In this document: positions 726-48,524 of the stretch, piece after piece | Layout of the letters: each line of letters begins with the position of its first letter | Numbering within the stretch: position 1 is the first letter of the stretch | NCBI GenBank assembly: GCA_013335095.1 | Contig: JAAXWF010000004.1 | Span: 74,740 to 138,739, forward strand | DNA from: a candidate division WWE3 bacterium | Lineage (GTDB): Bacteria > Patescibacteriota > 4484-211 > GCA-002791395 | DNA: 64,000 nt | Direction: 5' to 3' | The notes under the pieces: generated by a model | The model's database searches: none | The model's input: only the letters and a program-made list of their open reading frames with translations | Told to the model about the DNA's origin: nothing | Program-made: the position numbers and the translations under genes

Positions 726-1244
726 TTATCTTTTCTTCTTTGATACAGGGATCAATCGGGGGCGGAGTGAATATAACAGTAACACAAAGCCCAAGGGAAT
801 CATGACATAATTTACGACACCTCCTGGCACAATATGCGTAGAGAGCGCTGGTTTAAGCATCCCCACAACGAGCCGTAAAGAATATTCAATTATTATGGTT
901 AAATACATCGCCGGAATCAGACTTCGATATCGAAAAAGAACCACCGCGTAAATTATCCCGACTAATAATTGTGATATCCCCCATAAAGCAAACGTGAGTA
1001 TCACCAAATGACGAGCTTCAATTGAATAAGACCACAAAGGAAATCCGGCAATCGATTGGGCTCCCCCATCGGCCGAGACAAGGTGAATAAAACTCCGACC
1101 GATCGTAACAATCGTGATGGCAATAAATGCAAACAGTGAAACGGTACTTCCAGAATAGGTATTTGTAATCGTCTTGGGAAATAGATAATTTCGCCTCGTT
1201 TTACCCACGAATTTAGTGTACCGCGAGTTACTACGGATTAACAA
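726..1244 (-). CDS. Integral membrane protein, function unknown
   Basis: 172 aa ORF, largely hydrophobic with multiple predicted TM segments. Confidence 0.4.
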   Translation of the reverse strand: MLIRSNSRYTKFVGKTRRNYLFPKTITNTYSGSTVSLFAFIAITIVTIGRSFIHLVSADGGAQSIAGFPLWSYSIEARHLVILTFALWGISQLLVGIIYAVVLFRYRSLIPAMYLTIIIEYSLRLVVGMLKPALSTHIVPGGVVNYVMIPLGFVLLLYSLRPRLIPVSKKKR

Positions 1245-1561
1245 CTTGTGTTTTTTATTTCTTCATCAACCAGCACGAAATAAGATATGCAATAAAAGGA
1301 GATGTCCAACCCCATTGAAATAGAACAGAGGTAAGCCAGACCTCCCAAATCACACAACAAGGACCCAGAGAACCGTTCGCCATACAATCGGCCAAAAAAC
1401 ACTTTGTTACTAAGTAAAAAGATGTTACCCCAATTATTAATTCGAGCGCAATTGCAACACTGACTCGCTTTATTGTTGGCTTTAGAAATGTTGAAACATG
1501 TTGCATGTATTTCATATGCAGCATACAAGAAGGACCATATGCGTTACGGTATTATTACTAT

Positions 1562-1954
1562 CTATTCGCTTATGATACCGTTAAATTGATCTTCCTCTTC
1601 GTCAGCTTTGGTCGGCTGTATCGTATCTTTTAGGTGGGCTGGAGGTGAATAGAGTGTATACAGCTTTAAGGTTTCGGTTCCGGTGTTTATGACGTTATGG
1701 TAGGTCCCCGCTGGTATGATTATTGCCCAGTCATCGGCAACTTCATATTCAGTTTCTCCATTATTCAAGATGACTTTAGCATTTCCTTGTTCAATGCGTA
1801 AGAATTGATCGAGTCCATGGATTTCGTTTCCGATCTCATCACCAGGCTGAATGCTCATGTATACAAGTTGCGTGTAATGAGACGTATAGATTACCCGGCG
1901 ATAATCGGTATTTTCGAGTGTTTGTTGTTGGATGTTTCCGACAAATCCTTTCAT
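1562..1954 (-). CDS. Cupin domain protein
   Basis: 130 aa. Cupin-like beta-barrel motifs (G-x5-H...E...PAGTYHNVINTG). Confidence 0.6.
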   Translation of the reverse strand: MKGFVGNIQQQTLENTDYRRVIYTSHYTQLVYMSIQPGDEIGNEIHGLDQFLRIEQGNAKVILNNGETEYEVADDWAIIIPAGTYHNVINTGTETLKLYTLYSPPAHLKDTIQPTKADEEEDQFNGIISE

Positions 1955-2000
1955 GTAATTACTATATCATGAAGTTATAAAGAATGTTAAAATTTGTTGT

Positions 2001-2429
2001 ATGGCTGAGTTAAAAACGAAAGTCAATGATGGGAGTGTTGCCGATTTTATTAATGCCGTTTCGGATGATAAAAAACGCGCCGATAGTTTTGAGCTTCTAA
2101 CTCTTTTTGAAAAAGTTACTCATGAAAAACCCAAGATGTGGGGTTCAAGTATTATCGGATTTGGTTCGTATCATTATAAATCTGAGCGAAGCACTCAGGA
2201 GGGAGATTGGCCGCTGGTTGCCTTTTCTCCACGGAAACAAAACATCTCGCTATACTTGATGATACAAACCTTCAATGCCCAATCACTACTTGAAAAACTC
2301 GGAAAATATAAAGCTGGAAAAGGTTGCATCTACATAAATAAACTTACCGATGTAGATAAAAAAGTACTCGAACAACTCATCGAAAGATCGTTTGAGGAAA
2401 TGAAGAAAAGGTATTTGGCCGTTAGTTAA
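2001..2429 (+). CDS. DUF1801 (YdhG-like) domain protein
   Basis: 142 aa. N-terminal MAELKTKVNDGSVADFI... and central GFGSYHYKS... pattern typical of DUF1801 family. Confidence 0.5.
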   Translation: MAELKTKVNDGSVADFINAVSDDKKRADSFELLTLFEKVTHEKPKMWGSSIIGFGSYHYKSERSTQEGDWPLVAFSPRKQNISLYLMIQTFNAQSLLEKLGKYKAGKGCIYINKLTDVDKKVLEQLIERSFEEMKKRYLAVS

Positions 2430-2496
2430 TCACCGTCTGTTTTTAATACTCGTTAAATAGTTGGTTTTCGTTATTTCTTAAGTCGGATTTACCTAA

Positions 2497-3306
2497 TCAA
2501 TCGCAGATATCGTCAATGATTTCTTGGTCGCTGGTTACTGTTGGGTCATAGTATTTTTGATATTCTTGCAGTTTCTCGGCGTTATAGAGGTTGAACGGAC
2601 ACACTGCAAAACGATATTTTTTCGAAGTTTTTACGATTTCATCGTCTTTATATTGGGGATTAGTTGTTAATGATGTCTGCGGTGCCTTTAGATTTACAAC
2701 CCCAAAATCAAACCGAGCCCGACCGTCTTGATTACTATATCCAACGAGCTCACCTGCTTTTATATCGATGGACTGAACCGCAACACTTTTGGTGTCGTTG
2801 CTTGGTTCGGCAGGAAATGCTAACCGGATTTTTTCGGGTACATCGACTAGATGATCAAGCCAAAAACTGACATCGCATCCATCATTAAAAGAAAGGATGT
2901 ATTGAACTTTTGTAACTGGGTTTGGGCCGTAGGTTTCAAGGTAATTTGATCCACCGGTTAAGGTTGCGTCCATTGGTGCATAGACTGGCGATTTTTGTTT
3001 TACTTCAATATATGAGTGTGTTTTTATGTTTTTTCCACCGACTAGCCGAATCGGGTTTTGAATCAAATTAACCGCGCTCATATCTGTTACATCCGAGGTA
3101 AACAAACCCGGGTCCCCTGGTTTACAGCTACCAGATGGTACATCCTGATTATTATTTGCAATTGAATACATTGGTTTGGGCGGATCATTTTTGGTTCCCG
3201 TCTCTCTAACAATTAGAAAATTGAGAAAAAATGCTCCGACTCCAATAAGAACAACAGCGCCGACTAAAATAACTAATTCAACAAAGCCAGACTCAGATTT
3301 ATACAT
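2497..3306 (-). CDS. Membrane-anchored extracellular protein, weakly prepilin-like N-terminus
   Basis: 269 aa with single N-terminal hydrophobic helix (SGFVELVILVGAVVLIG) followed by a soluble domain. Not a canonical G/FTLIE pilin motif. Confidence 0.4.
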   Translation of the reverse strand: MYKSESGFVELVILVGAVVLIGVGAFFLNFLIVRETGTKNDPPKPMYSIANNNQDVPSGSCKPGDPGLFTSDVTDMSAVNLIQNPIRLVGGKNIKTHSYIEVKQKSPVYAPMDATLTGGSNYLETYGPNPVTKVQYILSFNDGCDVSFWLDHLVDVPEKIRLAFPAEPSNDTKSVAVQSIDIKAGELVGYSNQDGRARFDFGVVNLKAPQTSLTTNPQYKDDEIVKTSKKYRFAVCPFNLYNAEKLQEYQKYYDPTVTSDQEIIDDICD

Positions 3307-3368
3307 GAATTTATGATAAGTAAAAACGTTACGTTTAACAACATGTTGGGGTTAAAGAGAAATAGATT

Positions 3369-3710
3369 TCAAGACATCGGATACGTTGAATTAGAATTCG
3401 GCTCGCCAGTTTTTTTATCATGAGCATTCTCATGCTGTGGGAGGGGAAATATTCGAGTAAGAATCGCTGAAGAAATTGCATAAAAAATAAGTCCATAAAT
3501 CAAATATCCATCTACAGGAAATAGAACCCAGAAAGCGTAATAAATAACCTTCGTGTATCCTTCCAAGAAGTTATTGATATTAGGAATCTCCAAAAGAGCT
3601 AGAATACTCCCTAATATATATAAACCTATGAAGCCCATTGCAGTAGATATAATAAATAATAGTACCCAATGTGCCACCTTTCTACTAATTCTCATAATTT
3701 TTTCATACAT
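3369..3710 (-). CDS. Small membrane protein
   Basis: 113 aa with three hydrophobic segments. Confidence 0.35.
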   Translation of the reverse strand: MYEKIMRISRKVAHWVLLFIISTAMGFIGLYILGSILALLEIPNINNFLEGYTKVIYYAFWVLFPVDGYLIYGLIFYAISSAILTRIFPLPQHENAHDKKTGEPNSNSTYPMS

Positions 3711-32806: not shown

Positions 32807-33547
32807 ATGGAAACTCGTTTCACGATTAACAGATCTCAATTAATCACGATTATCGGACTTGTGTTTTTGATTGTAATTGGACTATGCGCCGTGTTTATTC
32901 AACAAGGGCATTTGTCAGTTGCGGGCTTAACGACTGAGCCAACCGCGACGATTCCACCAAGAACAGTTAGCCCCCTTATAGGATCAATTACACCTGCAAT
33001 AACGGTGCTTCCAACAAAAGGTTTGAAATCAGCGCCGACACCAACGCCGTATGTCGGAACAAAGATTACTCCAAAACCAACTAGTAAATCAAAGATAACG
33101 CCTTCGGCCTCGCCCGCTGGTCCAACCGTTCCTTCAGACAATACAAGTATAGACGTGATTTTAGCGAACGAATCATTGAATTTAGGGCGCCTGATCTGTG
33201 GGCCGAGTCAACAAACTGCGGTGAATAATAAAATTAAACAGCTCGATTCAGACATTTCCACATCAGCAAAGACATATATTGCTTGTAACAATACAGCAAA
33301 GACAAAAGGAGATGCGTGTATAAATGCATGTGGAACAAGTATTAGTTGCCTAGAGGGATGCGGTATGACGTGTGAATCAGAATCGAAATCATGCAACGAT
33401 GTGTATGTTTCTATTGCGATACCTCTTATAAGTCAATTTATTCAAGATGTTTCGGGAATTTGCTACAACTCCGAAGATATAAACCCGAATAAGAAACCAA
33501 CGCTAACGATAACCGCCTGTTATACTGACCCATACGACAAGCAATAG
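32807..33547 (+). CDS. Secreted/membrane-anchored cysteine-rich protein
   Basis: 246 aa. N-terminal TM helix, PT-rich linker, C-terminal domain with more than 10 Cys. Confidence 0.4.
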   Translation: METRFTINRSQLITIIGLVFLIVIGLCAVFIQQGHLSVAGLTTEPTATIPPRTVSPLIGSITPAITVLPTKGLKSAPTPTPYVGTKITPKPTSKSKITPSASPAGPTVPSDNTSIDVILANESLNLGRLICGPSQQTAVNNKIKQLDSDISTSAKTYIACNNTAKTKGDACINACGTSISCLEGCGMTCESESKSCNDVYVSIAIPLISQFIQDVSGICYNSEDINPNKKPTLTITACYTDPYDKQ

Positions 33548-33550
33548 ATC

Positions 33551-34078
33551 ATGATTCGTCGAAAATTAACCCGCAAACAAATTAAACTGATTACAACTCT
33601 TATTGCTGGTGCAATTTTAACCGTCATTGGGATTCTTTACCCAAACGCAAATAAGCCACAATCGACAAGTGGCCAAAATGAATTCGTGGTAACACGAGTT
33701 ATTGATGGTGATACCTTTGTTATCGATACGGGTCAAAAGATTCGCCTAATTGGTGTGGATACCCCTGAAATTGCAAAAAAGACGCCCCCCGCCGAATGTT
33801 ATGCCAACGAAGCGATGCTTTTCACTCAAAAGCAGCTCGAAAATAAAACAATCCGCTTAGAAAAAGATGTGTCCGAAACCGATAAGTATGGCCGCCTGCT
33901 TCGCTATGCGTATCTCAATGATGAGCTTTTTAACCAAACGCTGGTAGAACATGGCTATGCACTAGCCCGCTCGTATCCACCGGATGTAGCTAAACAAGAC
34001 GTACTTCAAGAAAGTGAACAATCTGCACGGACAAATAACCAAGGACTGTGGAACCCAGCTGTGTGCCCGAAACAATAG
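33551..34078 (+). CDS. Thermonuclease (SNase-like) family nuclease, membrane-anchored
   Basis: 175 aa. RVIDGDTFVI...RLIGVDTPE Ca-binding/catalytic motif and downstream R/E/Y residues. Confidence 0.7.
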   Translation: MIRRKLTRKQIKLITTLIAGAILTVIGILYPNANKPQSTSGQNEFVVTRVIDGDTFVIDTGQKIRLIGVDTPEIAKKTPPAECYANEAMLFTQKQLENKTIRLEKDVSETDKYGRLLRYAYLNDELFNQTLVEHGYALARSYPPDVAKQDVLQESEQSARTNNQGLWNPAVCPKQ

Positions 34079-34377
34079 CCTCAAGTAGCCTATAATCATT
34101 GCATTAACCCCCTAAACATCCTATAATTAAAGTGCGTACAGCTACGCAAGTAGTTTTACGTACTTTGGTAATACCAAAGATGCACTTTTTTATACGCATG
34201 AATTTGAACTAATGTAACGTTCACGTTGCTCCTGCGCCTTATCCAGGCCGTTGAGGATATAATAGTTATGTCTTCTACGGCCCGGATAAGAGTGTCGGCC
34301 TTACAAGCCGACTCGGACAACCCCGCGCAATCGGGGTTTATTGGTGGCGGTTCTACCGCCCAGATGAGGAGATCGCA

Positions 34378-34683
34378 ATGGATACCGATCTGCTATGGAG
34401 CCGAATCGAGGAGCGGGCGGCGGTTATGGCGATAGTTGCGAGTGCGATACTGGACGAGGGGGGCACTTTCCCCGTCCGTTTTAATCGAGCACTCAAAATG
34501 GTCGCTGAAAATGAGATCGAACTTACGGTGAGGGAGTGGATACAGGTCCTTCGGGGCCTTGGCATCTACGACTTCAACCAGTACTTCGGGCTCATTGGAA
34601 ACGTCCGTGTACCTGGCGGAACGCTCCCGTACTACGATAAGTTCGATCGGGAGATGTCTGCTATCGATTGGCACGGTTTCTAA
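34378..34683 (+). CDS. Hypothetical small protein (island cassette gene 1)
   Basis: 101 aa, about 58% GC. Preceded by hairpin GGTGGCGGTTCTACCGCCCA and a GAGGAG RBS. Confidence 0.45.
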   Translation: MDTDLLWSRIEERAAVMAIVASAILDEGGTFPVRFNRALKMVAENEIELTVREWIQVLRGLGIYDFNQYFGLIGNVRVPGGTLPYYDKFDREMSAIDWHGF

Positions 34684-34721
34684 AAAGGTGGCGGTTCTAC
34701 CGCCCACAAGGAGAGGTACCA

Positions 34722-35126
34722 ATGGCGACCTCAGCAGGCAGCCGTGCGCAGCTCAAGTCCGTGATCGAGGCCCTCGGCGAAGTCTACACAGTCGCTCTGG
34801 ACCTGGGGTACAATCCCCAGCCGGGGCTTGACCGTAGAATCTTCGCCCGGATGGCTAGTGCCGCCCATAACGGCACGCACATCGTGATCGGAATACAGCG
34901 GGCCGCCAAGAGGGCTAAGGAGCTGGGTATCGAGATGAATCCCACCGATTGGCTCCCCTATCTGGGGGCCTTTGGGATCAACTCGTACGAGCTTCTGCTG
35001 CTGGCGATCGGGGACTACACGTTCCAGATCGTCGGCGATGACCTTACCAGCGCGATTGTCGCCGGCCTCAAGCCCTGGGACTTCCCCGGGTATGAGGGTT
35101 GGCGGCCGGAGGAATCCGGCAAATAG
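34722..35126 (+). CDS. Hypothetical small protein (island cassette gene 2)
   Basis: 134 aa. Start chosen at the ATG 7 nt after AAGGAGAGG, which follows a second copy of the GGTGGCGGTTCTACCGCCCA hairpin. Confidence 0.45.
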   Translation: MATSAGSRAQLKSVIEALGEVYTVALDLGYNPQPGLDRRIFARMASAAHNGTHIVIGIQRAAKRAKELGIEMNPTDWLPYLGAFGINSYELLLLAIGDYTFQIVGDDLTSAIVAGLKPWDFPGYEGWRPEESGK

Positions 35127-35286
35127 GTTCCGATTCGGCGTTTGCCGGGGCTGAGGGGGAGCAATCCACCCAAAGTCCCGGCCTTTTTTGTTATATCTCT
35201 TTTATTTCAATTTTTATTTGACGACCTACAATAATTAACCTATAATAATTTCGTCTTTTTCATCCGGATAACAAGGAGGTGGCTCA

Positions 35287-35868
35287 ATGAGCCAGAACCA
35301 AGGAACGCTACCAACCATTCTGGTAGACCTGTCGTTCAGGTATGCAGGAACGCTCCTGCATGCTACTCACATTGATGCCGATGGTAATGCCCAGGTTGAG
35401 TTCCCGATCAGCTTCGGCGGAGGACGACTCCGAAGTGGTCGACGCAAGAGTGAGTACTTCATCCTCACCCTAGAACTTTCTGAGCTAGTAAGAATCATGG
35501 CTCTCTTCCAGAACCTGATTCACCGGATCCCTGAGGTCCAGGCGATGGCCGAAAACGCCATCACGGTGATCTCGCAGCAGGGGACGAAACTAAACCGGGA
35601 GGTCACGATCAAGCCGATCGTACGCACCCTCGTGGTTGCGACATCCCTCCCATCACGGGATGAGTCAGAGGCCGAAGTTGTTCTGGCGGCGGGAACGCAG
35701 GTGAGCATCTGGGGAGTATGTGACCCAACTCACCCGTACTTCTACGCCACTATCGGGGGAAACCGTTCGGCGCTTATTCCGGCAACCAATGTCGAAAACG
35801 GCGCGGATCTGGCGACCCGAATCTTCAAGCAGGCGGCGGAGCTATTCCGCCCGCTGGGAGGTGAGTAA
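35287..35868 (+). CDS. Hypothetical protein (island cassette gene 3)
   Basis: 193 aa. Preceded by the conserved TATAAT-N10-TTTTCATCCGGATA-AAGGAGG leader. C-terminal half resembles the next ORF (GTQV..G motif). Confidence 0.45.
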   Translation: MSQNQGTLPTILVDLSFRYAGTLLHATHIDADGNAQVEFPISFGGGRLRSGRRKSEYFILTLELSELVRIMALFQNLIHRIPEVQAMAENAITVISQQGTKLNREVTIKPIVRTLVVATSLPSRDESEAEVVLAAGTQVSIWGVCDPTHPYFYATIGGNRSALIPATNVENGADLATRIFKQAAELFRPLGGE

Positions 35869-36173
35869 TGAGCAACCCCGGTCTTGACGAGCTCCCGCTT
35901 CGTATAACTGAGCGGGTTCATGACATGGTGAGAACGGAACCTGCCATAGTGGCTTACACCACGGTAGGGCTCCAACTGACCTCAGAAACCGCTGGTGCCC
36001 AAATTCTACCGATAGGCACACAAGTGCTCGTCGTCGGCATATTTGGGTACAATCCGCCACGACTAATCGTCATCTGGCCGGATGGATCTGAAAGTGGTGT
36101 GGAGAAGTCCATCATTGAAGATGGAGAGGCATTGATTACGAGGATCACTAAGCTCCGTGATCCATCGGCCTAG
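35868..36173 (+). CDS. Hypothetical small protein (island cassette gene 4)
   Basis: 101 aa. TAATG stop/start overlap with gene 3 (translational coupling). Followed by a strong terminator. Confidence 0.45.
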   Translation: MSNPGLDELPLRITERVHDMVRTEPAIVAYTTVGLQLTSETAGAQILPIGTQVLVVGIFGYNPPRLIVIWPDGSESGVEKSIIEDGEALITRITKLRDPSA

Positions 36174-36194
36174 CCATTTGAAGTGACAAAACCA

Positions 36195-36227
36195 CCCCAG
36201 GGACTAAAAAACCTGGGGCTTTTTTTA
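36195..36227 (+). terminator. Rho-independent terminator (CCCCAGG-loop-CCTGGGG + T8)
   Basis: 7-bp GC-rich stem, 10-nt loop, followed by TTTTTTT. Lies between the convergent island cassette and pgk. Confidence 0.6.
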
Positions 36228-36239
36228 TTTTAGGGAATA

Positions 36240-37463
36240 TTATTCTTCACGGAGCATTTCTAACGCAGGGAGTTTTTTACCGGCAATAAATTCTAACGTC
36301 GCACCACCGGCTAAACTAATGTGAGTAAACTGAGTAGGATTACTAAATCGATTGATTACTGCAATCGTATCTCCTCCGCCAACAATCGAATCATTCTTAG
36401 AATTGGCCATAGCTTGAGCAACTATTTTTGAGCCATTTGCAAAACGATCATCTTCAAACTTTCCCATCGGACCATTCCAAAATACTGTACCCGATTTATG
36501 GATAATATCTGCATACATTTGCGCAGTAGCCGGACCAATATCGAATGCAGCCCAACCCGGTGCGACAGCTTGTTTCCCATCGACATACATAACTTGAGTT
36601 AAAAACGAATAATCCGAACTCTCTCCTACCACAACATCAACTGGCATTACAATCTTGTCACTTTTCTGAGCTTTTTCTAATAACTCTTTTGCATATTCAA
36701 CCCAATCTTTTTTTACCTTCTTTTGAGCATCCACAAAAACATCCTCGACATATGAATCAGCCATATCATGACCGGCAGCTTTCAAGAAAACATTTGCCAC
36801 GCCACCACCAACCAAAAACTGATCTGCGACGTTAAATAAATTATTAATGGCATCGACCTTATCCGAAACTTTTGCACCGCCGATAATTACGGTAAATGGC
36901 CGTTTTGGCGATTCGAGAATTCCCGACAAACTAGACGCCTCTTTTATGCAGTAAAATCCGGCATAACTCGGAAGATGACGCATGATACCAGTTACAGAAG
37001 CATGAGCTCGATGTGCTTGAGGAAAAGCATCGAAAACAACAACCTCACCATTTTTAGCAAGTTCCAATGCAAAAGAGTCATCATCGGTCATCTCTTCTGG
37101 ATGAAAACGGGTATTTTCGAGCATAACAATCTCACCAGGATGCATACGGTGTATAAAGGATTGGACTTCGTCTCCAATGCATTCATCTAATTTTTGTACT
37201 GGGTGATTTAATAATCGAGCTAAAACTTCGGCGTGAGGTGTCGTACGAAGAGATTCAACAACTTTACCATCAGGTCGCCCAACAAAGGTTAAGATAACAA
37301 TTTTGCATTGTTTTTCTAGAAGGTATTGTAACGTTGGAAGAGTTGCTTCTATTCGGCTTTCATCGGTAAGAGTACCGTCATCTTCGACATTTATATCGTA
37401 TGGGGAACGATATAAAACAGTCTTATCAGTAAGATCAGCAGTTTCGAGTGAACGCAAACGCAT
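36240..37463 (-). CDS. pgk: Phosphoglycerate kinase
   Basis: 407 aa. N-domain substrate-binding residues, hinge and C-terminal nucleotide-binding GGGA motif region (IIGGAKVSDK, GGGVAN). Confidence 0.85.
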   Translation of the reverse strand: MRLRSLETADLTDKTVLYRSPYDINVEDDGTLTDESRIEATLPTLQYLLEKQCKIVILTFVGRPDGKVVESLRTTPHAEVLARLLNHPVQKLDECIGDEVQSFIHRMHPGEIVMLENTRFHPEEMTDDDSFALELAKNGEVVVFDAFPQAHRAHASVTGIMRHLPSYAGFYCIKEASSLSGILESPKRPFTVIIGGAKVSDKVDAINNLFNVADQFLVGGGVANVFLKAAGHDMADSYVEDVFVDAQKKVKKDWVEYAKELLEKAQKSDKIVMPVDVVVGESSDYSFLTQVMYVDGKQAVAPGWAAFDIGPATAQMYADIIHKSGTVFWNGPMGKFEDDRFANGSKIVAQAMANSKNDSIVGGGDTIAVINRFSNPTQFTHISLAGGATLEFIAGKKLPALEMLREE

Positions 37464-37466
37464 TAT

Positions 37467-38933
37467 TTATAAAACCTCTTGTATTGTTATTGTATTCGTT
37501 GAACCCGGAACACGCCAGCGGCGACCGTGAACAATTAATAAACGATTACCTGGATGAGCGATACCTTGAGCCTTTAAGGCATCGACGGCTTCTTCAAGTG
37601 ATACGTCAGTCTCTTCGGGGAACGGTAGGTTAACCGGTTCAATACCATACGATAACTGGAGTTGACCGCGAATTGTTTCATCAACGGTAATTGCAAAGAT
37701 CGGAATATCAAGACGGAATCGCGATAATGAATACGCAGTGCGGCCAGTTTCACTAAAAACGATAATCGCATCGATATCAAAATTTTTGCGAGTTGAAACG
37801 ATCTTGTTTACCGCATAGGTTAAAATGTCGGTTTGATCCAAAGCTTTTTCCATAGATAAATCAGGAACATACATGTGGGCCTTTGTTTCATTGAACTCGG
37901 CGATTTTTGCCATAGTACGTACGGCTTCAACCGGATATTTACCCTGGGCACTTTCACCAGAAAGCATAATTGCATCGGTTCCATCAAACACAGCATTAGC
38001 AACGTCGGTTACTTCGGCACGTGTAGGCATCCGTTCGGTAATCATAGATTGGAGCATTTGAGTTGCAGTAATAACCGGCTTTCCAACAATACGGCAGGTA
38101 TTAATGATTTCATTTTGCCAATAAGCGATCTCTTCGAGCGGAGTCTCAATACCAAGATCACCACGAGCAATCATTATTGCATCTGATAAAGTTATGATTT
38201 CGCCTAAATGATGCAATGCCAAACTGGTTTCGATCTTTGAAACGATTTTGGCTGGCATTTTATATTCATCCAGTTTATTTTTCAAAACATTAATGTCTTC
38301 ACCGGTACGAATAAATGATAACGCTACGTAAGCGATTTCTAAATCTTTAAATGCATCTAGAAACATAACATCTCGTTCGGTAAGTGATGGGACATCAACA
38401 TACACTGTGGGTAAATTGACTCCTTTACGATTGCCAACGGTATAATTGTCTAGCGCGGTCGCAACAACAGAATCGCCTTCTTTACGAACAACTTCAAAAT
38501 GGATAAATCCATCATCGATTAAAATAATTGTTCCGATATTTAGTTCATTGATAATTTGTTGATTAGGAATAACAAACTCTTTTTCTTTACCGGTAAAATC
38601 TGCCGAAAAATATGCTTCTTCACCAGATTTAACTTCGACAGGTTGTTTGTTTGGTGTAGCAATACGGATTTCTGGACCTTGAAGGTCTACAAGAATACCA
38701 ACCGGCTTGTTCATGCGTTTGCTAATCGAAAGAACTGATTCGATTCGTTCACGATGCCACTCCGGCTCATTATGTTTTAGATTGAAACGAAATACATCAA
38801 CGCCCGCATCAATCATTTTTTCGATAGTATCAGGAGATTCCGACGCAGGTCCGAGCGTCGCAACTATTTTTGTTCTGCGCACGTTCATTATTCTAGTCGA
38901 TGATCCCGAATAATCAACCCCCAATACATACAA
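37467..38933 (-). CDS. pyk: Pyruvate kinase
   Basis: 488 aa ORF. Real start likely the internal Met (MNVRRTKIVATLGP, near 38888). K+/Mg-binding and MIARGDLG active-site motifs. Confidence 0.85.
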   Translation of the reverse strand: MYVLGVDYSGSSTRIMNVRRTKIVATLGPASESPDTIEKMIDAGVDVFRFNLKHNEPEWHRERIESVLSISKRMNKPVGILVDLQGPEIRIATPNKQPVEVKSGEEAYFSADFTGKEKEFVIPNQQIINELNIGTIILIDDGFIHFEVVRKEGDSVVATALDNYTVGNRKGVNLPTVYVDVPSLTERDVMFLDAFKDLEIAYVALSFIRTGEDINVLKNKLDEYKMPAKIVSKIETSLALHHLGEIITLSDAIMIARGDLGIETPLEEIAYWQNEIINTCRIVGKPVITATQMLQSMITERMPTRAEVTDVANAVFDGTDAIMLSGESAQGKYPVEAVRTMAKIAEFNETKAHMYVPDLSMEKALDQTDILTYAVNKIVSTRKNFDIDAIIVFSETGRTAYSLSRFRLDIPIFAITVDETIRGQLQLSYGIEPVNLPFPEETDVSLEEAVDALKAQGIAHPGNRLLIVHGRRWRVPGSTNTITIQEVL

Positions 38934-39040
38934 AAGACATACAAATTACCAACAATATTCACATTTTATTTGATGTAGCTATGGTATTTTGCTATCATCG
39001 TGGCGTTCACACTAGGCAAGGAATAATTAAGGAGGTGGCA

Positions 39041-39910
39041 ATGCCACGGCTACATGAGCTGGAAATCACCATTACGTTAAATGGTGAAAAGTCGGTGACA
39101 AATCTCGGACGAATAGCATTACACGATGCTGTTCGAAAAATAGTCGAGATGAACCCGACGGTTGGCCCGGCAAACATGTCGGTTCGTCAAGTCGATATAG
39201 ATCGGATCCTGCCGAATATAACCTTTCGCCAGCAGACGAACAGTCTATTTTCCCAACTGCTGGCAGAGCGAGTAGAAGCAGATCCGCAGCCACCCCTTCC
39301 CCACCATGTGAATGAAGAGGTATACGCCATCTGCCCCTGGTGCCGTAAAGAGGTTGGTGATGAGGTCTATCGAACTCTCAAGGATTGGAATTACATCCAG
39401 CCCGACTGGACACTGACCGACAAATTCGATGAATTCGAATGTCCACATTGCGGCCAAGTTATTGGTCGGTATTTAAGTGTGTGGCTGACCCAGCCAGTTA
39501 AACTGGGTGCGGCACTCTTTGCTAACCATCCAGTGGTGTACGGTGAACGGCTAGCTCGGTATAAAGAGCTACATTGGCTATTAGTAAATCTATCGGAAGA
39601 ACTAGGCCAATTGACACAAGTCGCGATTTTTGAACGATTTGGATGGCGCTGGAACCAGCTTCCTCCACTGGCTGAAGTGGCTCGATCAAAAGGAATTACG
39701 ATTGATCGGCGACGTAAGCAGGAACAGACGGGTCTTAGGAAATTGCGCAATCGGCGCAATGCCGAACAAATGACAGGAGCAGCCGACCCAACGGGGACCT
39801 TTGAAATATTAAGACTAAAACAGCAGATTGCTGATTTAGAAACACGGCTAAGAATATTAACCGTGGAAAACTCCAATCTGCAGGGACTCTTATTAGCTCT
39901 GCGGAAATAG
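39041..39910 (+). CDS. Zinc-ribbon protein with sigma-70 region-4-like HTH (paralog A)
   Basis: 289 aa from the ATG 7 nt after AAGGAGG. CPWC-x35-CPHC zinc ribbon. C-terminal IFERFGW...LAEVARSKGITIDRRRKQEQTGLRKLR closely parallels rpoD region 4 (LELRFGL...[27 protein letters not shown]). No region 2. Confidence 0.5.
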   Translation: MPRLHELEITITLNGEKSVTNLGRIALHDAVRKIVEMNPTVGPANMSVRQVDIDRILPNITFRQQTNSLFSQLLAERVEADPQPPLPHHVNEEVYAICPWCRKEVGDEVYRTLKDWNYIQPDWTLTDKFDEFECPHCGQVIGRYLSVWLTQPVKLGAALFANHPVVYGERLARYKELHWLLVNLSEELGQLTQVAIFERFGWRWNQLPPLAEVARSKGITIDRRRKQEQTGLRKLRNRRNAEQMTGAADPTGTFEILRLKQQIADLETRLRILTVENSNLQGLLLALRK

Positions 39911-40077
39911 AGCTAGTGTAAATACCGGCTAATGAGGGAATCTCATTGGCCGGTATATTAACGACACATACATTTCCATATCTCTCGACACGCTACCGTT
40001 TGCATAACATTATCGGCTTTGTTATCATTTCCCTGACTACAACCAGTAGTTGTTGGATAACGCAAGGGAGGTGCTCT

Positions 40078-41250
40078 GTGCCAAACCAAGACAGGATTGT
40101 CATCCTGTATGAGGTCAACGGCCATCGAGGTAGTTCTGAATACTTCGATATGACCTTTAATGATGCCCTGGCGATGTTTGTGCGGGAACGGCCGGAAATC
40201 GGTCCCCGACAGATCGCCCAGGTATTCCACGGGTTGGTCAGTAGTGAAAAGACCTACAACGGCTGGAGAGGCCGGGTCGACGCATACTACCTCAACGTTC
40301 CCCTTCCGGACCCAGATCCGATTGCCCCAGAAGTCGAAGACGAACTATCGGCCCAGTGCCCACGGTGCAAGGCCGATATCGGAGGATGGATCGTATCGAG
40401 CCTACCCCGGGACGATCTGTATCTTAACTTTGGGGTACCAAGTTTCGATTTCAGATGTCCAGGGTGTGGAACCGATTTAGAGATGTGGATACATAGCTAT
40501 TTGAACAAGCTTATGGCGGTGTTCAATGTAGTCCATGGAGGAATTGTAGAACGAGATAAGGCAGCACTGCGTTTAGTGCGCTTCTATCGCTCCGTTCAAC
40601 AGGTCCTGGTTGACCTGCATCAGCAGGAACCTGAGGTTTATAACGTCTTGGCTCATATGGTCGGACTCAAAGGAGTCTCGATTACCCAGAAGCAGGTAAT
40701 TATAGAACTGGGCCTGGGATCAGACTCCGTTCTAAGAAAGCTTATGGGTAAGGCAACAACGTTTTTGCGGCGCCACCCGCAAATGCAGGCAGCCTTCCGA
40801 TATCGGGATTTAAGCGACGAGGCAATAAATGCGTTCGTCGCCTCAGCCCAAGGAAGACAAGAAGAGGCGCTGGCAGAACTCGCGGCGCAAGTAGCCACGC
40901 TTTCGACGATGATCAATGAGGTCGCGAATCACCAACATGATGCGATCTTCAACCTCAGAGTCGAAGTGCTACTCCTGAGGGGCCTACCCCTGGCCGAAGC
41001 CCAGATCCTAGCCCTTCTTACCGTCGAGGATCTAGCGCTTACGCCAAGCCTGCGACGCTCGCTTAACATAGCACCCGTTCTCACCGAAATGCGAAACGCT
41101 GCCGGCAGAGTCTTTGCCGGTAATCTTTTGATCTGGCTCAGGTCAAAAGACCGAGAACAGGTAATCAAAAGTATCCCCAGAATGGGTCCATCTGGGATGG
41201 CCAGTATTGAAGGGGCATTCCTCCTTCTTGGGATTCAAGTTTACCCGTAA
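40078..41250 (+). CDS. Zinc-ribbon protein with sigma-70 region-4-like HTH (paralog B)
   Basis: About 390 aa from the GTG after GGGAGG. CPRC-x36-CPGC zinc ribbon. HTH segment VGLKGVSITQKQVIIELGLGSDSVLRKL. N-terminus parallels paralog A (MP..I.I..NG...GP). Confidence 0.5.
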   Translation: MPNQDRIVILYEVNGHRGSSEYFDMTFNDALAMFVRERPEIGPRQIAQVFHGLVSSEKTYNGWRGRVDAYYLNVPLPDPDPIAPEVEDELSAQCPRCKADIGGWIVSSLPRDDLYLNFGVPSFDFRCPGCGTDLEMWIHSYLNKLMAVFNVVHGGIVERDKAALRLVRFYRSVQQVLVDLHQQEPEVYNVLAHMVGLKGVSITQKQVIIELGLGSDSVLRKLMGKATTFLRRHPQMQAAFRYRDLSDEAINAFVASAQGRQEEALAELAAQVATLSTMINEVANHQHDAIFNLRVEVLLLRGLPLAEAQILALLTVEDLALTPSLRRSLNIAPVLTEMRNAAGRVFAGNLLIWLRSKDREQVIKSIPRMGPSGMASIEGAFLLLGIQVYP

Positions 41251-41367
41251 TAAACCAGAGCTGGTCGGCATCGCCGATCAGCTCATCTTTCTACATCCAT
41301 TCGAACTCAACAATCATACTATAGGTGCTATAATTAATCCGTCGCTATTGGCACGTATCGGAGGTCC

Positions 41368-41776
41368 TATGACCAAAGGATTCTTGGACAAGGTTAAACT
41401 GGCCAAGGGGCCAGACATGAGTTTCGCGGCCTTTGAACAAGCATTTTCGGCATTTGACGAATTCAACGCGAATCCCACCAAACGATTCGTCATCGTCTTT
41501 CTGTGGCCTATGGGTGAAACCATGAGTATGCAAGGGCTGAACCGCCCACTCGACTATGCCTTTGCATATGTTGATGGATCTACTCCGATTCCCTATCGAT
41601 TAATGGAGATCGGCCTGGGGTGGAATATCTCGTCCGACCCACATGAGATATCAATCGCAGAATTTATACAGCGTTTGACCGATGAATTCGGCGATCGATT
41701 TGCCGGAATCATTCAGGCATCGGGTGAATTCTGGCGATTGGCCGAGCTGGCGATTGAAGCCAGCAAAGGACCCTAA
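41368..41776 (+). CDS. Hypothetical protein (end of GC-rich island)
   Basis: 136 aa from the ATG after GGAGG. Followed by hairpin CGGGAG-N12-CTCCCG. Confidence 0.35.
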
Positions 41777-46481: not shown

Positions 46482-46781
46482 GTATGATGTCTCCTTAATT
46501 GATTATACCGTCCTTTTCCCTATTGACGCAATAACTATGGGATGATAATGTAATTCGCAATGAAAAATTTAATCTGTCAATTGAGCTTTAATCAATTACG
46601 CAAAGTGGCGACACCAGCGGGCCATATCGTGCCCAAAGCAGGCTCAGATAATGGGCTTGTTTTCGCCGCAGTCCTTGTACGCAAGAAAAGACCTCACTAA
46701 CTCCCCTCTTGTAATAAGCACTGTGGTGAAAACCACAGTCGCTAAAGGCGCGACAAGCGCATACACCAAGAGGAGGATTCG

Positions 46782-48524
46782 ATGCATCTACGTCTCTGGA
46801 AGCTCCTTGAGCCGTTCCACCGGATTTTCGCCTGGTACGCCGTGTTAATCATCGTCTTTGAAGGCCTTCAGATTATTGAAGGTTATGTCATGAGCGGTGT
46901 TATTACCCTGTTCAACAGCGGTATTACGCCTTTCATGTGGATGATGCTATTCACGGCAATCGTCATTTTCGACGAAGCATTCATGCGATTAGGGAATCGG
47001 ATCGACTGGTACGTCATTGTCAAACAAGACTACCCAATCTTCCGGTATCTCAAAACAAAGGCCACACAAAAGTTTCTAGCAATGGAAATGGCCTGGCATC
47101 AGCGTATGAACTCAGGTACGCTGTCCGGGAAGGTGAACCAGGGCGTATCGAAGGTAAATGACATGGTCGATGCATTGAGCTGGGAGTTTCTCCCAACGAT
47201 CATCCAAACCATACTTTCGATCATTCCGCTGCTTATCTTAAGCCCAGTAGTGGTGCCGATCGCAATCGTTGGGTTGGGTCTGTTTCTATGGATTAGCGCA
47301 CTCAGCTATCTTGAGCGTCGCCCATTAAGAACAGAACGACATGATGCTTACGAGGAAGATTGGAGATTGGCAACGGAGATCGTCCGAGCGACCGAAACGC
47401 TGCGGATGTTTGGCCAGGAAGACCGGTTCTACCAGGAGTATGAAGAACTCCATGAGCGGATCATGGAGCGCGGTAAGATCGAAGCCCATATGGGCGTTTT
47501 TCGGCATAATCGCTGGCGAATTACGGTGATGAACATCACCCGCCGCGCGATTTTGGCGGTATGGATCTGGCAGTTGTATCAGGGTACCCTTGATATCGCC
47601 GGACTCATCTTCGTCAATGTGTTGATGGAAAAGCTTTTTCATGCCTGCTGGCGGCTAGCCCGTCTATGGGAAAAAGCCGTCGAGGCAAACGAAAGCGTTG
47701 ACCGGTTGTACAACCTCCTCTCGGAGGAGCCGCGGCCACATACCGGGACAAAAACCCTGACAGAGTGTGGGGTTCCGGCAATCAACCTGGATGGAGTGTG
47801 TTTTTCGTATGATGAGGAATACGCTCAAGATTCAGGGGCGTTGCATGATCTTAGCCTAGACATCAATCCGGGTGAGATTATTGCCGTTGTTGGCCCATCC
47901 GGTGCAGGGAAAACGACACTGCGCAAGATCGTGACCGGGCTCTGGCCGATTCAGTCGGGTACCATTACCGTAGCCGGCATTGAGCTATCGGATTGGTCAT
48001 TGCAGCATCTGCGCCGGCTATACTCGTATGTCCCTCAGGGAGATGACGTGTATGTGTTCGACAACACGGTTGCGTTCAATATCAGGGTTTCAAAACCCGA
48101 CGCATCCGACGAAGAAGTAGTTCGGGCGGCTGAGCTGGCTGGAATCAGCGAGTTCATTGAAACGCTTGAGGAAAAGTACGAGACCAAGGTAGGTGAGCGA
48201 GGTATTCGCCTATCCGGTGGTCAAAAGCAGCGAATCGCCCTGGCCCGCGCGATTCTAGCCGATCGACCGATCCTAATTCTCGATGAGGCAACGAGTGCAA
48301 TCGATGCCATTACCGAGAGAAAGATTCAGTCGCTAATGAGCACGATCCTATCAGGCAAGACTGCGATCATCATCGCTCATCGTCTTTCAACGGTGTGGGA
48401 TATCGCTGATCGGATCATCGTAATGGAAAACGGCCGGAAAGTGGCCGAGGGAACGCACGAACAACTGGTACTTCAAGGTGGATTGTATGCTGAGATGGTC
48501 AGCCTCCAAACCCACCACGAGTAA
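46782..48524 (+). CDS. ABC exporter, fused permease/ATPase (MsbA/LmrA-like)
   Basis: 580 aa. Six N-terminal TM helices, Walker A GPSGAGKTT, signature LSGGQKQRIALARA, Walker B ILILDEATSAID. Gene is about 55-58% GC. Confidence 0.8.
   Translation: MHLRLWKLLEPFHRIFAWYAVLIIVFEGLQIIEGYVMSGVITLFNSGITPFMWMMLFTAIVIFDEAFMRLGNRIDWYVIVKQDYPIFRYLKTKATQKFLAMEMAWHQRMNSGTLSGKVNQGVSKVNDMVDALSWEFLPTIIQTILSIIPLLILSPVVVPIAIVGLGLFLWISALSYLERRPLRTERHDAYEEDWRLATEIVRATETLRMFGQEDRFYQEYEELHERIMERGKIEAHMGVFRHNRWRITVMNITRRAILAVWIWQLYQGTLDIAGLIFVNVLMEKLFHACWRLARLWEKAVEANESVDRLYNLLSEEPRPHTGTKTLTECGVPAINLDGVCFSYDEEYAQDSGALHDLSLDINPGEIIAVVGPSGAGKTTLRKIVTGLWPIQSGTITVAGIELSDWSLQHLRRLYSYVPQGDDVYVFDNTVAFNIRVSKPDASDEEVVRAAELAGISEFIETLEEKYETKVGERGIRLSGGQKQRIALARAILADRPILILDEATSAIDAITERKIQSLMSTILSGKTAIIIAHRLSTVWDIADRIIVMENGRKVAEGTHEQLVLQGGLYAEMVSLQTHHE

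What the first reader, a model, noticed from the sequence alone, without database searches (positions are those of the whole stretch)
34200..36235. Four-gene GC-rich cassette of small unknown proteins behind a triple-hairpin leader with a duplicated hairpin element
This segment between the SNase gene and pgk is about 58% GC, against about 39% for the backbone. It holds four small ORFs (101, 134, 193 and 101 aa). They use AAGGAGG-type RBSs and TAATG coupling, and a strong terminator closes the cassette.

The leader is unusually structured:
- A TATAAT at 34258-34263 is flanked by inverted half-sites CTTATCCAGGCCG (34238-34250) and CGGCCCGGATAAG (34278-34290).
- The transcript would then fold three consecutive GC hairpins: GTCGGC-N7-GCCGAC at 34294-34313, CCCCG-N6-CGGGG at 34321-34336, and GGTGGCGGTTCTACCGCCCA at 34343-34362.
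- The last hairpin is repeated verbatim at 34687-34706, immediately before gene 2.

A repeated stem-loop placed exactly before consecutive RBSs suggests an RNA-binding translational regulator site or a processing site.

Gene 3 and gene 4 share an internal GTQV..G motif, pointing to a domain duplication.
Basis: seen in the sequence. Interest (0 to 1): 0.75.

Follow-up and report, generated by a model that had tools for sequence, protein, structure and literature searches.

The report
Foreign small-gene cassettes with hairpin leaders
A 2 kb GC-rich insert in the chromosome of an uncultured WWE3 (CPR) bacterium carries two self-contained transcription units for four small proteins of unknown function. 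Its conserved RNA hairpins most likely stabilise or insulate the mRNAs. It is real and undescribed, but only two examples exist.

Summary

- **Composition:** the segment is 54.8% GC against 41.9% for the rest of the window. The window is a candidate division WWE3 (CPR) chromosome.
- **Two operons, not one cassette:** g1-g2 and g3-g4 are separated by a terminator (35144-35189) and a near-consensus promoter (35218-35246).
- **Second locus:** one homologous island exists, "X", in Logan runs SRR21121619/20/27/28. It sits between different AT-rich genes and has four monocistronic cassettes.
- **Shared elements:**
  - a promoter (CCTATAAT, 34120-34127);
  - a ~245-nt, six-hairpin 5' leader;
  - a terminator family;
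  - a GC hairpin just 5' of the Shine-Dalgarno site of 7 of 8 ORFs.
it lies in the loop of a transcribed 57-nt hairpin and is not conserved.
- **Stem changes:** all substitutions keep pairing, several as G·U. With two sequences this is not statistically significant.
- **Proteins:** they fall into two novel families and are essentially orphans. Family A is a predicted six-helix bundle (g1, g2 and three X proteins). Family B is the g3 C-terminus plus g4.

Best reading: a horizontally acquired, moron-like cassette island whose hairpins act as mRNA stabiliser, processing or insulator modules. Protein function is unknown. Interest is moderate.

The parts
34099..34127 (+). Probable promoter of unit 1: -35 TTGCAT (34099-34104), 17-nt spacer, -10 TATAAT (34122-34127, inside CCTATAAT).
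   Evidence: Read. CCTATAATTRAAGT is conserved in locus X at L002 1118-1131. A primary sigma-70 gene is present in the window. The transcription start is inferred, not mapped.
34130..34176 (+). Leader hairpins P1 (34130-34165, 5'-terminal) and P2 (34166-34176).
   Evidence: Predicted folds. X has hairpins at the same positions with different sequence. P2 shows 3 compensatory pairs.
34180..34210 (+). Conserved, mostly unpaired leader block TGCACTTTTTTATACGCATGAATTTGAACT.
   Evidence: 25 of 30 positions are identical to X 1180-1208; z 8.5, 0 of 2000 shuffles reach the score.
34238..34290 (+). Leader hairpin P3, a 23-bp stem.
   Evidence: MFE -32.8 kcal/mol; the X equivalent is -43.8 with 25 pairs and 4 G·U. 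There are 23 aligned pairs, 100% paired in both loci, and 5 variable pairs, all kept. The 3' arm ACGGCCCGGATAAG is invariant.
34294..34338 (+). Leader hairpins P4 (34294-34312) and P5 (34319-34338; the AAUCG loop/stem motif is shared with X).
   Evidence: one compensatory pair in each hairpin, none broken.
34343..34362 (+). Pre-SD hairpin copy 1 (P6): GGTGGCGGTTCTACCGCCCA, followed by SD GAGGAG (34367-34372).
   Evidence: Exact repeat. GGCGG-loop-CCGCC is conserved before X_c1 and X_c2.
34378..34683 (+). g1, 101 aa, a shortened family A member.
   Evidence: Similar to g2 (z 5.7) and X_c2 (z 6.4). The annotated frame is chosen by the codon model. NCBI NTV31584.1, hypothetical.
34687..34706 (+). 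Pre-SD hairpin copy 2, identical to copy 1, followed by SD AAGGAGAGG (34709-34717).
34722..35126 (+). g2, 134 aa, family A, a predicted six-helix bundle.
   Evidence: Homologue P0005 (= X_c1): pairwise E 2e-13, library-wide E 1e-3. AF2 pLDDT 78.8. No fold match.
35144..35189 (+). Intrinsic terminator of unit 1: a nested hairpin followed by U6.
   Evidence: -29.1 kcal/mol. It is homologous to three terminators in X.
35218..35246 (+). Promoter of unit 2: TTGACG, 17 nt, TATAAT.
   Evidence: 11 of 12 consensus matches.
35287..35868 (+). g3, 193 aa. SD AAGGAGG at 35273-35279. The C-terminal ~65 aa belong to family B.
   Evidence: No relative was found by the word-seeded search of 5.8 billion proteins. 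The frame is supported. The AF2 model is unusable (pLDDT 38).
35835..35851 (+). Pre-SD hairpin of g4 (GGCGGAGCTATTCCGCC), inside the 3' end of g3.
   Evidence: three GGCGG-N3-7-CCGCC sites in 64 kb, all in the island, against 0.06 expected. It has the strongest upstream fold among 64 window genes.
35868..36173 (+). g4, 101 aa, family B, joined to g3 by TAATG.
   Evidence: g3 versus g4: z 4.9, 1 of 1000 shuffles; E 6e-4. Its coding signal is the weakest of the four.
36195..36226 (.). Bidirectional terminator, probably shared with pgk, whose stop codon is at 36240-36242 on the - strand.
   Evidence: Fold. An A-run lies 5' and a T-run 3' of the stem. It is not homologous to the X terminators.

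Best explanation
Positions ~34090-36230 are a horizontally acquired island in a WWE3 (CPR) chromosome. It consists of two autonomous, moron-like transcription units, each with a promoter, a structured leader, ORFs preceded by strong SD sites, and an intrinsic terminator.

The units encode small, acidic, cytoplasmic, fast-diverging proteins of two undescribed families.

The palindromes are transcribed RNA hairpins, not DNA operators. Unit 1 starts at about 34134 with a 5'-terminal hairpin, a conserved single-stranded block, a long RNase III-type hairpin (P3) and three short GC hairpins. Nearly every cistron has a GC hairpin a few nucleotides 5' of its SD.

The inferred mechanism has three parts:
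- The hairpins, with the strong SD sites, protect each cistron from 5'-end-dependent decay.
- They keep the SD free of long-range pairing in a GC-rich message.
- They mark processing boundaries, with AU-rich spacers just 5' of each hairpin.

The duplicated 20-mer arose by tandem duplication of a hairpin-SD-ORF module (g1 and g2 are paralogues). Selection or gene conversion has since kept it identical.

Shown: the island, the homology, the conserved foldability and the coding frames. Inferred: the transcription start, the stability or processing role, and every statement about protein function.
For: **Foreign composition and codon usage**
- The composition contrast is shown.
- A host codon model does not fit g1-g3.
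- The window is chromosomal (dnaG, rpoD, gltX, atp genes, pgk, pyk). No recombinase domain is recorded within ±10 kb.

**Second locus X**
- X has the same design between different flanking genes: four units, each with promoter, hairpins, SD, ORF and terminator.

**Regulatory parts are far more conserved than proteins**
- The P3-P6 alignment is 80% identical, against 26% amino-acid identity for g2 versus X_c1.
- The two loci share a terminator family.
- An upstream block is 25/30 identical.

**RNA-level structure**
- In P3-P5, all 33 pairs form in both loci. There are 3 double and 5 one-sided changes and none is disruptive. Slid controls pair at only 29-48%.
- Over the full leader there are 12 compensatory pairs.
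- The + strand folds better than the - strand: -101.6 against -80.9 kcal/mol in X.

**Pre-SD hairpins**
- Three GGCGG-loop-CCGCC sites occur, all directly before island SD sites, against 0.06 expected.
- g4, g1 and g2 rank 1st, 2nd and 5th of 64 genes for upstream fold energy.
- Equivalent hairpins precede all four X ORFs.

**Paralogy**
- g1, g2, X_c1, X_c2 and X_c3 are linked by significant alignments.

**Precedent**
- 5' occlusion plus a strong SD stabilises mRNAs (PMC3997798).
- The B. subtilis hbs mRNA combines a structured 5' UTR and a strong SD that block RNase J1 (PMC5737220).
Against: - Only two independent loci exist. Covariation is therefore not statistically significant: 62 of 500 shuffles reach the observed value. 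Most stem pairs are simply invariant.
- There are no transcript data, so the start site, processing and stability effects are untested.
- A pure stabiliser does not need sequence conservation as strict as the invariant P3 3' arm or the 20/20 identity including the loop. That hints at a sequence-specific partner.
- No mobility gene, target-site duplication or terminal repeat was found. Neither donor nor transfer route is known.
- Whether this genome encodes RNase III, J or Y cannot be seen from 64 kb.
Confidence: 0.5

Rival explanations
1. The pre-SD hairpins, and perhaps P3, are binding or cleavage sites for one dedicated RNA-binding protein. This would be a translational repressor like a phage coat protein, or a Cas6/Csy4-like hairpin endonuclease. 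It would coordinate expression of the cistrons.
For: - The two copies are identical over 20/20 nt including the loop, while the flanks drop to about 58% identity.
- The GGCGG/CCGCC stem is conserved across the two loci.
- The P3 3' arm is invariant.
Against: - Loops differ in sequence and length among the seven hairpins.
- The X_c3 and X_c4 stems differ in sequence (GCGGC, GGTGGT).
- All island proteins are acidic to neutral and have no RNA-binding family hit.
- The hairpins lie 5' of the SD and do not cover the SD or the AUG.
Confidence: 0.2
2. The leader is a sensing riboregulator. It would be riboswitch-like, or an autoregulatory site for the family A protein that always follows it. It would switch between a P6 hairpin and an alternative anti-SD pairing.
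For: - A conserved unpaired block is present.
- A pyrimidine-rich segment just 5' of P3 can pair with the purine-rich 5' side of P6 or the SD in both loci. That is 6 alifold pairs, 3 of them compensatory (also the MFE).
- In both loci the leader precedes a family A gene.
Against: - The hairpins are independent, like beads on a string, with no multi-stem junction.
- There is no Rfam match even at E 10.
- Family A proteins are only 26% identical while the leader is 80% identical, which argues against a co-evolving pair.
- The alternative helix is weak and rich in G·U.
Confidence: 0.12
3. The palindromes work as DNA: operators for a dimeric regulator, or recombination sites of an integron-like or IS200/605-like mobile cassette.
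For: - Long inverted repeats sit at the 5' edge of a foreign island.
- The island lies at different genomic sites in the two loci.
- Conserved intergenic modules recall integron or rAID arrays (10.1101/471110).
Against: - Four G·U pairs in X P3, and the + strand folding better than the - strand, are RNA-specific.
- The arm spacing differs by 4-5 bp.
- P3 lies about 100 nt downstream of the conserved promoter.
- There is no GTTRRRY/RYYYAAC core.
- There is no recombinase, transposase or TnpB within ±10 kb.
- There are no target-site duplications or terminal repeats.
Confidence: 0.07
4. It is an artefact: a chimeric assembly, or GC-rich non-coding sequence with chance ORFs.
For: - ORFs of about 100 codons are expected by chance in 55% GC sequence. 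An antisense 109-aa ORF exists.
- g3 and g4 have no homologue outside the locus.
Against: - The same junctions appear in the NCBI MAG contig (143 kb) and in an independent Logan assembly (52 kb).
- Island X was assembled identically from four runs.
- The annotated frame is chosen in 8 of 8 cross-locus codon tests.
- tblastx finds only the + frame match.
Confidence: 0.03

Closest known systems
Phage 'morons' (autonomous promoter-gene-terminator units of deviant base composition, e.g. in HK97 and lambda; recalled from general knowledge)
   Same: - Each unit has its own sigma-70-type promoter and intrinsic terminator.
- The ORFs are small and of unknown function.
- Base composition differs from the neighbours.
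- The units are inserted between unrelated genes.
   Different: - This island sits in a chromosome, between SNase and pgk, not in a recognisable prophage.
- The units form tandem arrays of paralogues.
- Each carries multi-hairpin leaders.
- No phage relatives were found.
5' UTR mRNA stabilisers: ompA, aprE and ermC 5' stem-loops, cryIIIA STAB-SD, and the hbs structured leader with strong SD (PMC3997798, PMC5737220)
   Same: - A hairpin sits at or near the predicted +1.
- SD sites are strong.
- SD-like purine tracts overlap the 5' arm of the pre-SD hairpins.
- Each cistron is bracketed by stable 5' and 3' hairpins.
   Different: - There are six hairpins in series, plus one before internal cistrons.
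- Sequence conservation is higher than a steric block needs.
- The function is untested.
RNase III processing hairpins of phage T7 early mRNAs and the rnc leader (recalled from general knowledge)
   Same: P3 is a 23-25 bp, nearly perfect stem in an untranslated leader, followed by further hairpins that would cap the processed 5' end.
   Different: - No cleavage data exist.
- The presence of RNase III in this genome was not checked.
Recombinase-associated acquired interbacterial defence arrays (rAID-1) and integron cassette arrays (10.1101/471110)
   Same: - Small genes are co-directional.
- GC content is skewed relative to the genome.
- Conserved repetitive intergenic elements are present.
- Gene content is divergent and paralogous.
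   Different: - There is no XerD-like or IntI recombinase.
- There are no attC-type sites.
- Each gene has its own promoter and terminator.
- There is no similarity to known immunity families.

Membership tests
Integron gene cassette array | An IntI tyrosine recombinase with attI and Pc adjacent to the array | tested here: not met
   No recombinase Pfam domain is recorded on any gene within ±10 kb. The flanks are SNase and pgk.
Integron gene cassette array | attC sites (imperfect palindromes with RYYYAAC / GTTRRRY cores) at the 3' end of promoterless cassettes | tested here: not met
   The P3 arms are CTTATCCAGGCCG / CGGCCCGGATAAG with no conserved GTTRRRY core. The cassettes carry their own promoters and terminators.
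rAID-1 orphan-immunity array | A 5' XerD-like recombinase plus at least 2 co-directional genes of skewed GC (criteria in 10.1101/471110) | tested here: not met
   Co-directional genes of skewed GC are present. No recombinase is present.
rAID-1 orphan-immunity array | Genes homologous to known toxin-immunity families | tested here: not met
   There are no Pfam, NCBIfam or PADLOC hits.
Known structured RNA families (Rfam 15: riboswitches, leaders, sRNAs, CRISPR repeats) | A covariance-model match at or near the gathering score | tested here: not met
   Only the tRNA-Gln matches at gathering score. Within 34000-36300 the best E-value is 2.5, far below cut-offs.
Toxin-antitoxin or anti-phage defence system | A match to a known toxin, antitoxin or defence protein model | tested here: not met
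   PADLOC, Pfam and NCBIfam give nothing. The X cassettes are monocistronic.
Phage moron / prophage cargo | An autonomous promoter-ORF-terminator unit with deviant composition | tested here: met
   promoters and terminators; GC.
Phage moron / prophage cargo | Location inside a phage or prophage genome | tested here: not met
   The neighbours are housekeeping genes. There are no PHROG hits and no phage or viral-contig relatives.
5' UTR mRNA stabiliser | A stable stem-loop at the extreme 5' end and/or a strong SD in the leader | tested here: inconclusive
   P1 begins within a few nt of the predicted +1 in both loci, and the SD sites are strong. The transcription start is only predicted.
5' UTR mRNA stabiliser | The element lengthens mRNA half-life | not testable with these tools
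   This needs half-life measurements on hairpin mutants.

The most novel reading that the evidence does not exclude
These islands may represent a recombinase-less cassette system of CPR bacteria.
- A conserved regulatory frame (promoter, multi-hairpin leader, pre-SD hairpin, terminator) would serve as a portable expression socket.
- The cargo would be rapidly diversifying small acidic inhibitor proteins, such as immunity against toxins of the host or competitors, or anti-defence factors.
- The arrays would grow by tandem duplication.
- The invariant P3 3' arm would be a specific control point.

This would be functionally analogous to integron or rAID arrays but mechanistically distinct.
Probability: 0.15. 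Interest if true: 0.7.

Novelty: new variant of a known kind. Interest (0 to 1): 0.42.

Why it matters
CPR bacteria are uncultured episymbionts whose accessory genes and gene regulation are almost unknown.

This locus gives a concrete and rare example of foreign expression units whose RNA and regulatory frame is conserved much more strongly than their proteins. It also yields two undescribed protein families and an undescribed leader RNA.

If the hairpin-SD module proves to be a stabiliser or processing signal, it would show how CPR bacteria express GC-rich acquired genes. If the proteins prove to be inhibitors or immunity factors, it would bear on how these symbionts survive contact with hosts and competitors.

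With only two loci and no functional handle, the present value is mainly as a lead.

Tried and rejected
**DNA pattern scans for the P3 core**
- GGCCGT-N20-45-ACGGCCCGGATAAG was scanned in viral contigs and genomes. CTTCNACGGCCCGGATAAG was scanned in viral contigs and metagenomes.
- These gave 2, 35, 0 and 46 hits, all chance matches inside unrelated, mostly GC-rich coding sequence. The viral and genome loci were checked by blastn; the metagenome hits were checked by reading the flanks.

**Protein searches**
- g3 alone has no relative.
- The exhaustive HMMER search with g2 found only P0005 plus two repetitive false positives.
- The two family A profiles found only members of the two loci.
Its 90% cluster has one member.

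**Other searches with no significant result**
- Pfam, PHROGs, PADLOC, NCBIfam and PDB sequence searches.
- tblastn and blastn against phages and plasmids.
- Viral-contig protein scans.

**Structure**
- The AF2 model of g3 had pLDDT 38 and was not used.
- The afdb50 library was unavailable.

**Ideas rejected**
- A leader peptide: the SSTARIR frame is not maintained downstream.
- Target-site duplications or terminal repeats.
- Extra leader copies in the window.
- Homology between this leader and other GC-rich patches of the window.
- The origin of the samples could not be found in the literature.
Full report
**1. Observation**

Direct reading and the ORF list confirm four + strand ORFs:
- g1: 34378-34683, 101 aa
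- g2: 34722-35126, 134 aa
- g3: 35287-35868, 193 aa
- g4: 35868-36173, 101 aa

The 20-mer GGTGGCGGTTCTACCGCCCA occurs exactly at 34343 and 34687 and nowhere else in 64 kb, even allowing 3 mismatches. None is expected in shuffles. With flanks, the repeat extends to 44 nt at 80% identity, covering the SD and the ATG.

GC of 34200-36235 is 54.8% against 41.9% for the rest of the window.

The leader folds much better than shuffled sequence (z -5.5 to -6.5).

**2. Corrections to the anatomy**

Between g2 and g3 lie two signals:
- a strong nested terminator (35144-35182 plus U6; -29.1 kcal/mol);
- the best promoter match of the region, TTGACG-17-TATAAT at 35218-35246 (11 of 12).

The segment is therefore two transcription units, g1-g2 and g3-g4. 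TAATG coupling occurs only at g3/g4.

A third GGCGG-loop-CCGCC hairpin (35835-35851) sits just 5' of the g4 SD. All three such sites in the window lie in the island and directly precede an SD, against 0.06 expected. For fold energy of the -50 to -7 region, g4, g1 and g2 rank 1st, 2nd and 5th of 64 window genes.

The closing terminator (36195-36226) lies 13 nt from the pgk stop on the other strand. It has an A-run on one side and a T-run on the other, so it is probably bidirectional and shared with pgk.

**3. Are the ORFs genes?**

- GC by codon position is coding-like: GC1 ≈ 0.61, GC2 0.37-0.45, GC3 0.54-0.79. Host genes have GC3 of 0.28-0.37.
- A codon model trained on the ORFs of the second locus picks the annotated frame out of six for all four window ORFs. 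The reverse test also succeeds, giving 8 of 8. A model trained on host genes does not fit g1-g3.
- g4 has the weakest signal.

**4. Source**

The proteins are NTV31584-NTV31587 of a candidate division WWE3 MAG. The locus is also present in an independent Logan assembly of SRR11449211.

The window is chromosomal. It carries dnaG, rpoD, gltX, ATP synthase, pgm, pgk and pyk. No recombinase domain is recorded within ±10 kb.

**5. Relatives**

- g3 has no relative in the word-seeded search of 5.8 billion proteins.
- An exhaustive HMMER scan of 1.84 billion representatives with g2 found one true relative, P0005 (library E 1e-3; pairwise E 2e-13).
- Following P0005, P0008 and P0009 through Logan contigs, I assembled a 3746-nt composite locus, X. 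The overlap is identical, and the locus was seen in four runs.

Locus X has AT-rich flanks (~0.40 GC) carrying a beta-lactamase-family gene and a membrane protein. Between them lies a 0.51-0.63 GC island with four monocistronic units. Each unit has a promoter, hairpins, an SD, a small ORF (123, 118, 118 and 138 aa) and a terminator. The flanking genes differ from those in the window, so the island occupies different genomic sites.

Pattern scans for the leader core in viral, genome and metagenome collections returned only chance hits. There are no phage, plasmid or viral-contig relatives. The family is therefore very rare.

**6. What is conserved between the two loci**

| Element | Window | Locus X | Evidence |
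|---|---|---|---|
| Promoter motif CCTATAATTRAAGT | -10 at 34122-34127; -35 TTGCAT at 34099-34104 | L002 1118-1131 | |
| Hairpins P1 and P2 right after the predicted +1 | 34130-34176 | same positions, different sequence | |
| Unpaired block | 34180-34210 | X 1180-1208 | 25/30 identical, z 8.5 |
| P3-P6 | 34232-34366 | L002 1217-1352 | 80% identical |
| Start ATGGATAC | yes | yes | |
| Terminator family GGCCGGGG…CCCGGCC-T6 | one copy | three copies | |

By contrast, the proteins are at most 26-35% identical.

Inside X, the terminators (95% over 22 nt) and a 14-nt promoter-region repeat recur between cassettes whose ORFs are barely alignable. The same contrast holds inside the window: the two hairpin copies are 20/20 identical, while g1 and g2 are 28% identical over 60 aa.

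**7. RNA or DNA?**

- On the P3-P5 alignment, all 33 pairs form in both loci. Three pairs changed on both sides and five on one side, always to a G·U-compatible partner. None is broken. Slid controls pair at only 29-48%.
- Over the whole leader, RNAalifold reports 55 pairs, 12 of them compensatory.
- P3 in X uses four G·U pairs.
- The + strand folds better than its complement: -101.6 against -80.9 kcal/mol in X, and -98.4 against -93.8 in the window.
It is replaced by ACAAAC… in X, and the distance between the two half-sites differs by 4-5 bp.

These points favour a + strand RNA hairpin over a promoter-operator arrangement. With only two sequences, however, the shuffle control is not significant (62 of 500), and most pairs are simply invariant.

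There is no Rfam match. A covariance model of P3-P6 finds one copy per locus.

**8. The pre-SD hairpin**

Seven of the eight ORFs in the two loci have a 5-6 bp GC hairpin ending 1-6 nt before the SD, or 23 nt before it for X_c2, where a second hairpin intervenes.
- The stems are GGCGG/CCGCC in five cases, and GCGGC and GGTGGT in the other two.
- The loops differ: TTCTA twice, then AGCTATT, TCTTTA, TTT, ACA and CTGTC.
- An AU-rich spacer lies 5' of each hairpin.
- An SD-like purine tract overlaps the 5' arm.

g3 lacks this hairpin. It has a short leader and a small hairpin around its AUG.

**9. Proteins**

Shuffle-calibrated Smith-Waterman scores define two families:
- Family A: g1, g2, X_c1, X_c2 and X_c3, linked by z scores of 5.7-18.8.
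- Family B: the g3 C-terminus and g4 (z 4.9).

All eight proteins are acidic to neutral (pI 4.7-6.9). There are no family hits in Pfam, PHROGs, PADLOC, NCBIfam or PDB sequences.

**10. Interpretation**

The best-supported reading is a horizontally acquired island of autonomous, moron-like expression units. Its regulatory RNA frame is under much stronger constraint than its fast-diverging cargo.

Strong conservation of the RNA, set against weak conservation of the proteins, points to recognition by conserved host machinery (ribosome, RNases) rather than by the island's own proteins.

The architecture consists of:
- a 5'-terminal hairpin;
- a long RNase III-type stem;
- a GC hairpin and a strong SD before each cistron;
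- a strong 3' terminator hairpin.

This matches known determinants of mRNA protection. [quoted passage not shown] This role is inferred, not shown.

The duplicated hairpin is explained by tandem duplication of a hairpin-SD-ORF module, followed by selection or gene conversion.

The invariant P3 3' arm and the identical loops leave room for a sequence-specific partner.

**11. Comparison with known systems**

The island works like phage morons and like 5' UTR stabilisers. It superficially resembles integron or rAID arrays (10.1101/471110), but it fails their defining features: there is no recombinase and there are no attC sites.

It is not a member of any Rfam, Pfam or defence family tested.

I rate it a new variant of a known kind. 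It is real and undescribed, but it rests on two loci and has no functional handle. Interest is 0.42.

Noticed in passing
window 46524-48524: An ABC transporter gene (46782-48524; ABC_membrane + ABC_tran) is also GC-rich (0.52-0.53). It has a promoter-like site at about 46524-46550. Its ~230-nt leader ends in two hairpins (CTGTGGTGAAAACCACAG and TCGCTAAAGGCGCGA) directly before the SD AAGAGGAGG. This is the same hairpin-then-SD style as the island, but the sequence is not homologous.
   Followed up: partly
window 38900-41776: A second GC-richer patch (0.48-0.52) lies on the other side of pgk-pyk. It has three + strand ORFs (336, 434 and 189 aa) with only sub-threshold zinc-ribbon hits. It shares no hairpin or terminator style with the island.
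   Followed up: partly
L002 + L089 (composite locus X, 3746 nt; island ~1100-3470): This is a sister island with four monocistronic cassettes. The terminator (95% over 22 nt) and a 14-nt repeat, CTTATAGTGTTTG…, in the promoter region recur between cassettes, while the ORFs have diverged almost beyond recognition. This suggests whole-cassette tandem duplication with fast protein evolution.
   Followed up: partly
window 34221-34231 with 34343-34372; L002 ~1206-1220 with 1326-1345: A pyrimidine-rich, anti-SD-like segment just 5' of P3 can pair with the purine-rich 5' side of P6 or the SD. The segment is GTTGCTCCTG in the window and CCTCTTTTCTCTTTG in X. The pairing would enclose P3-P5 and compete with P6, giving a possible switch. 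It was seen in the MFE and alifold folds only.
   Followed up: no
window 34199-34213: A four-codon mini-ORF (ATG AAT TTG AAC TAA) lies inside the conserved unpaired leader block. The ATG reads ACG in locus X, so it is probably not meaningful.
   Followed up: yes
window 36195-36226: The terminator that closes g4 lies 13 nt beyond the pgk stop on the opposite strand and has A- and T-runs on its two sides. It is probably the host's bidirectional pgk terminator rather than part of the insert.
   Followed up: partly
window 32807-33547: A 246-aa ORF lies upstream of the SNase gene. It has an N-terminal hydrophobic segment, a Pro/Thr/Ser-rich linker and a Cys-rich C-terminus. It has no Pfam match.
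   Followed up: no
window 34690-34704, - strand: Read on the minus strand, pre-SD hairpin copy 2 is followed by ACCTTTTTAG and scores as terminator-like. It could stop antisense read-through coming from the pgk side.
   Followed up: no
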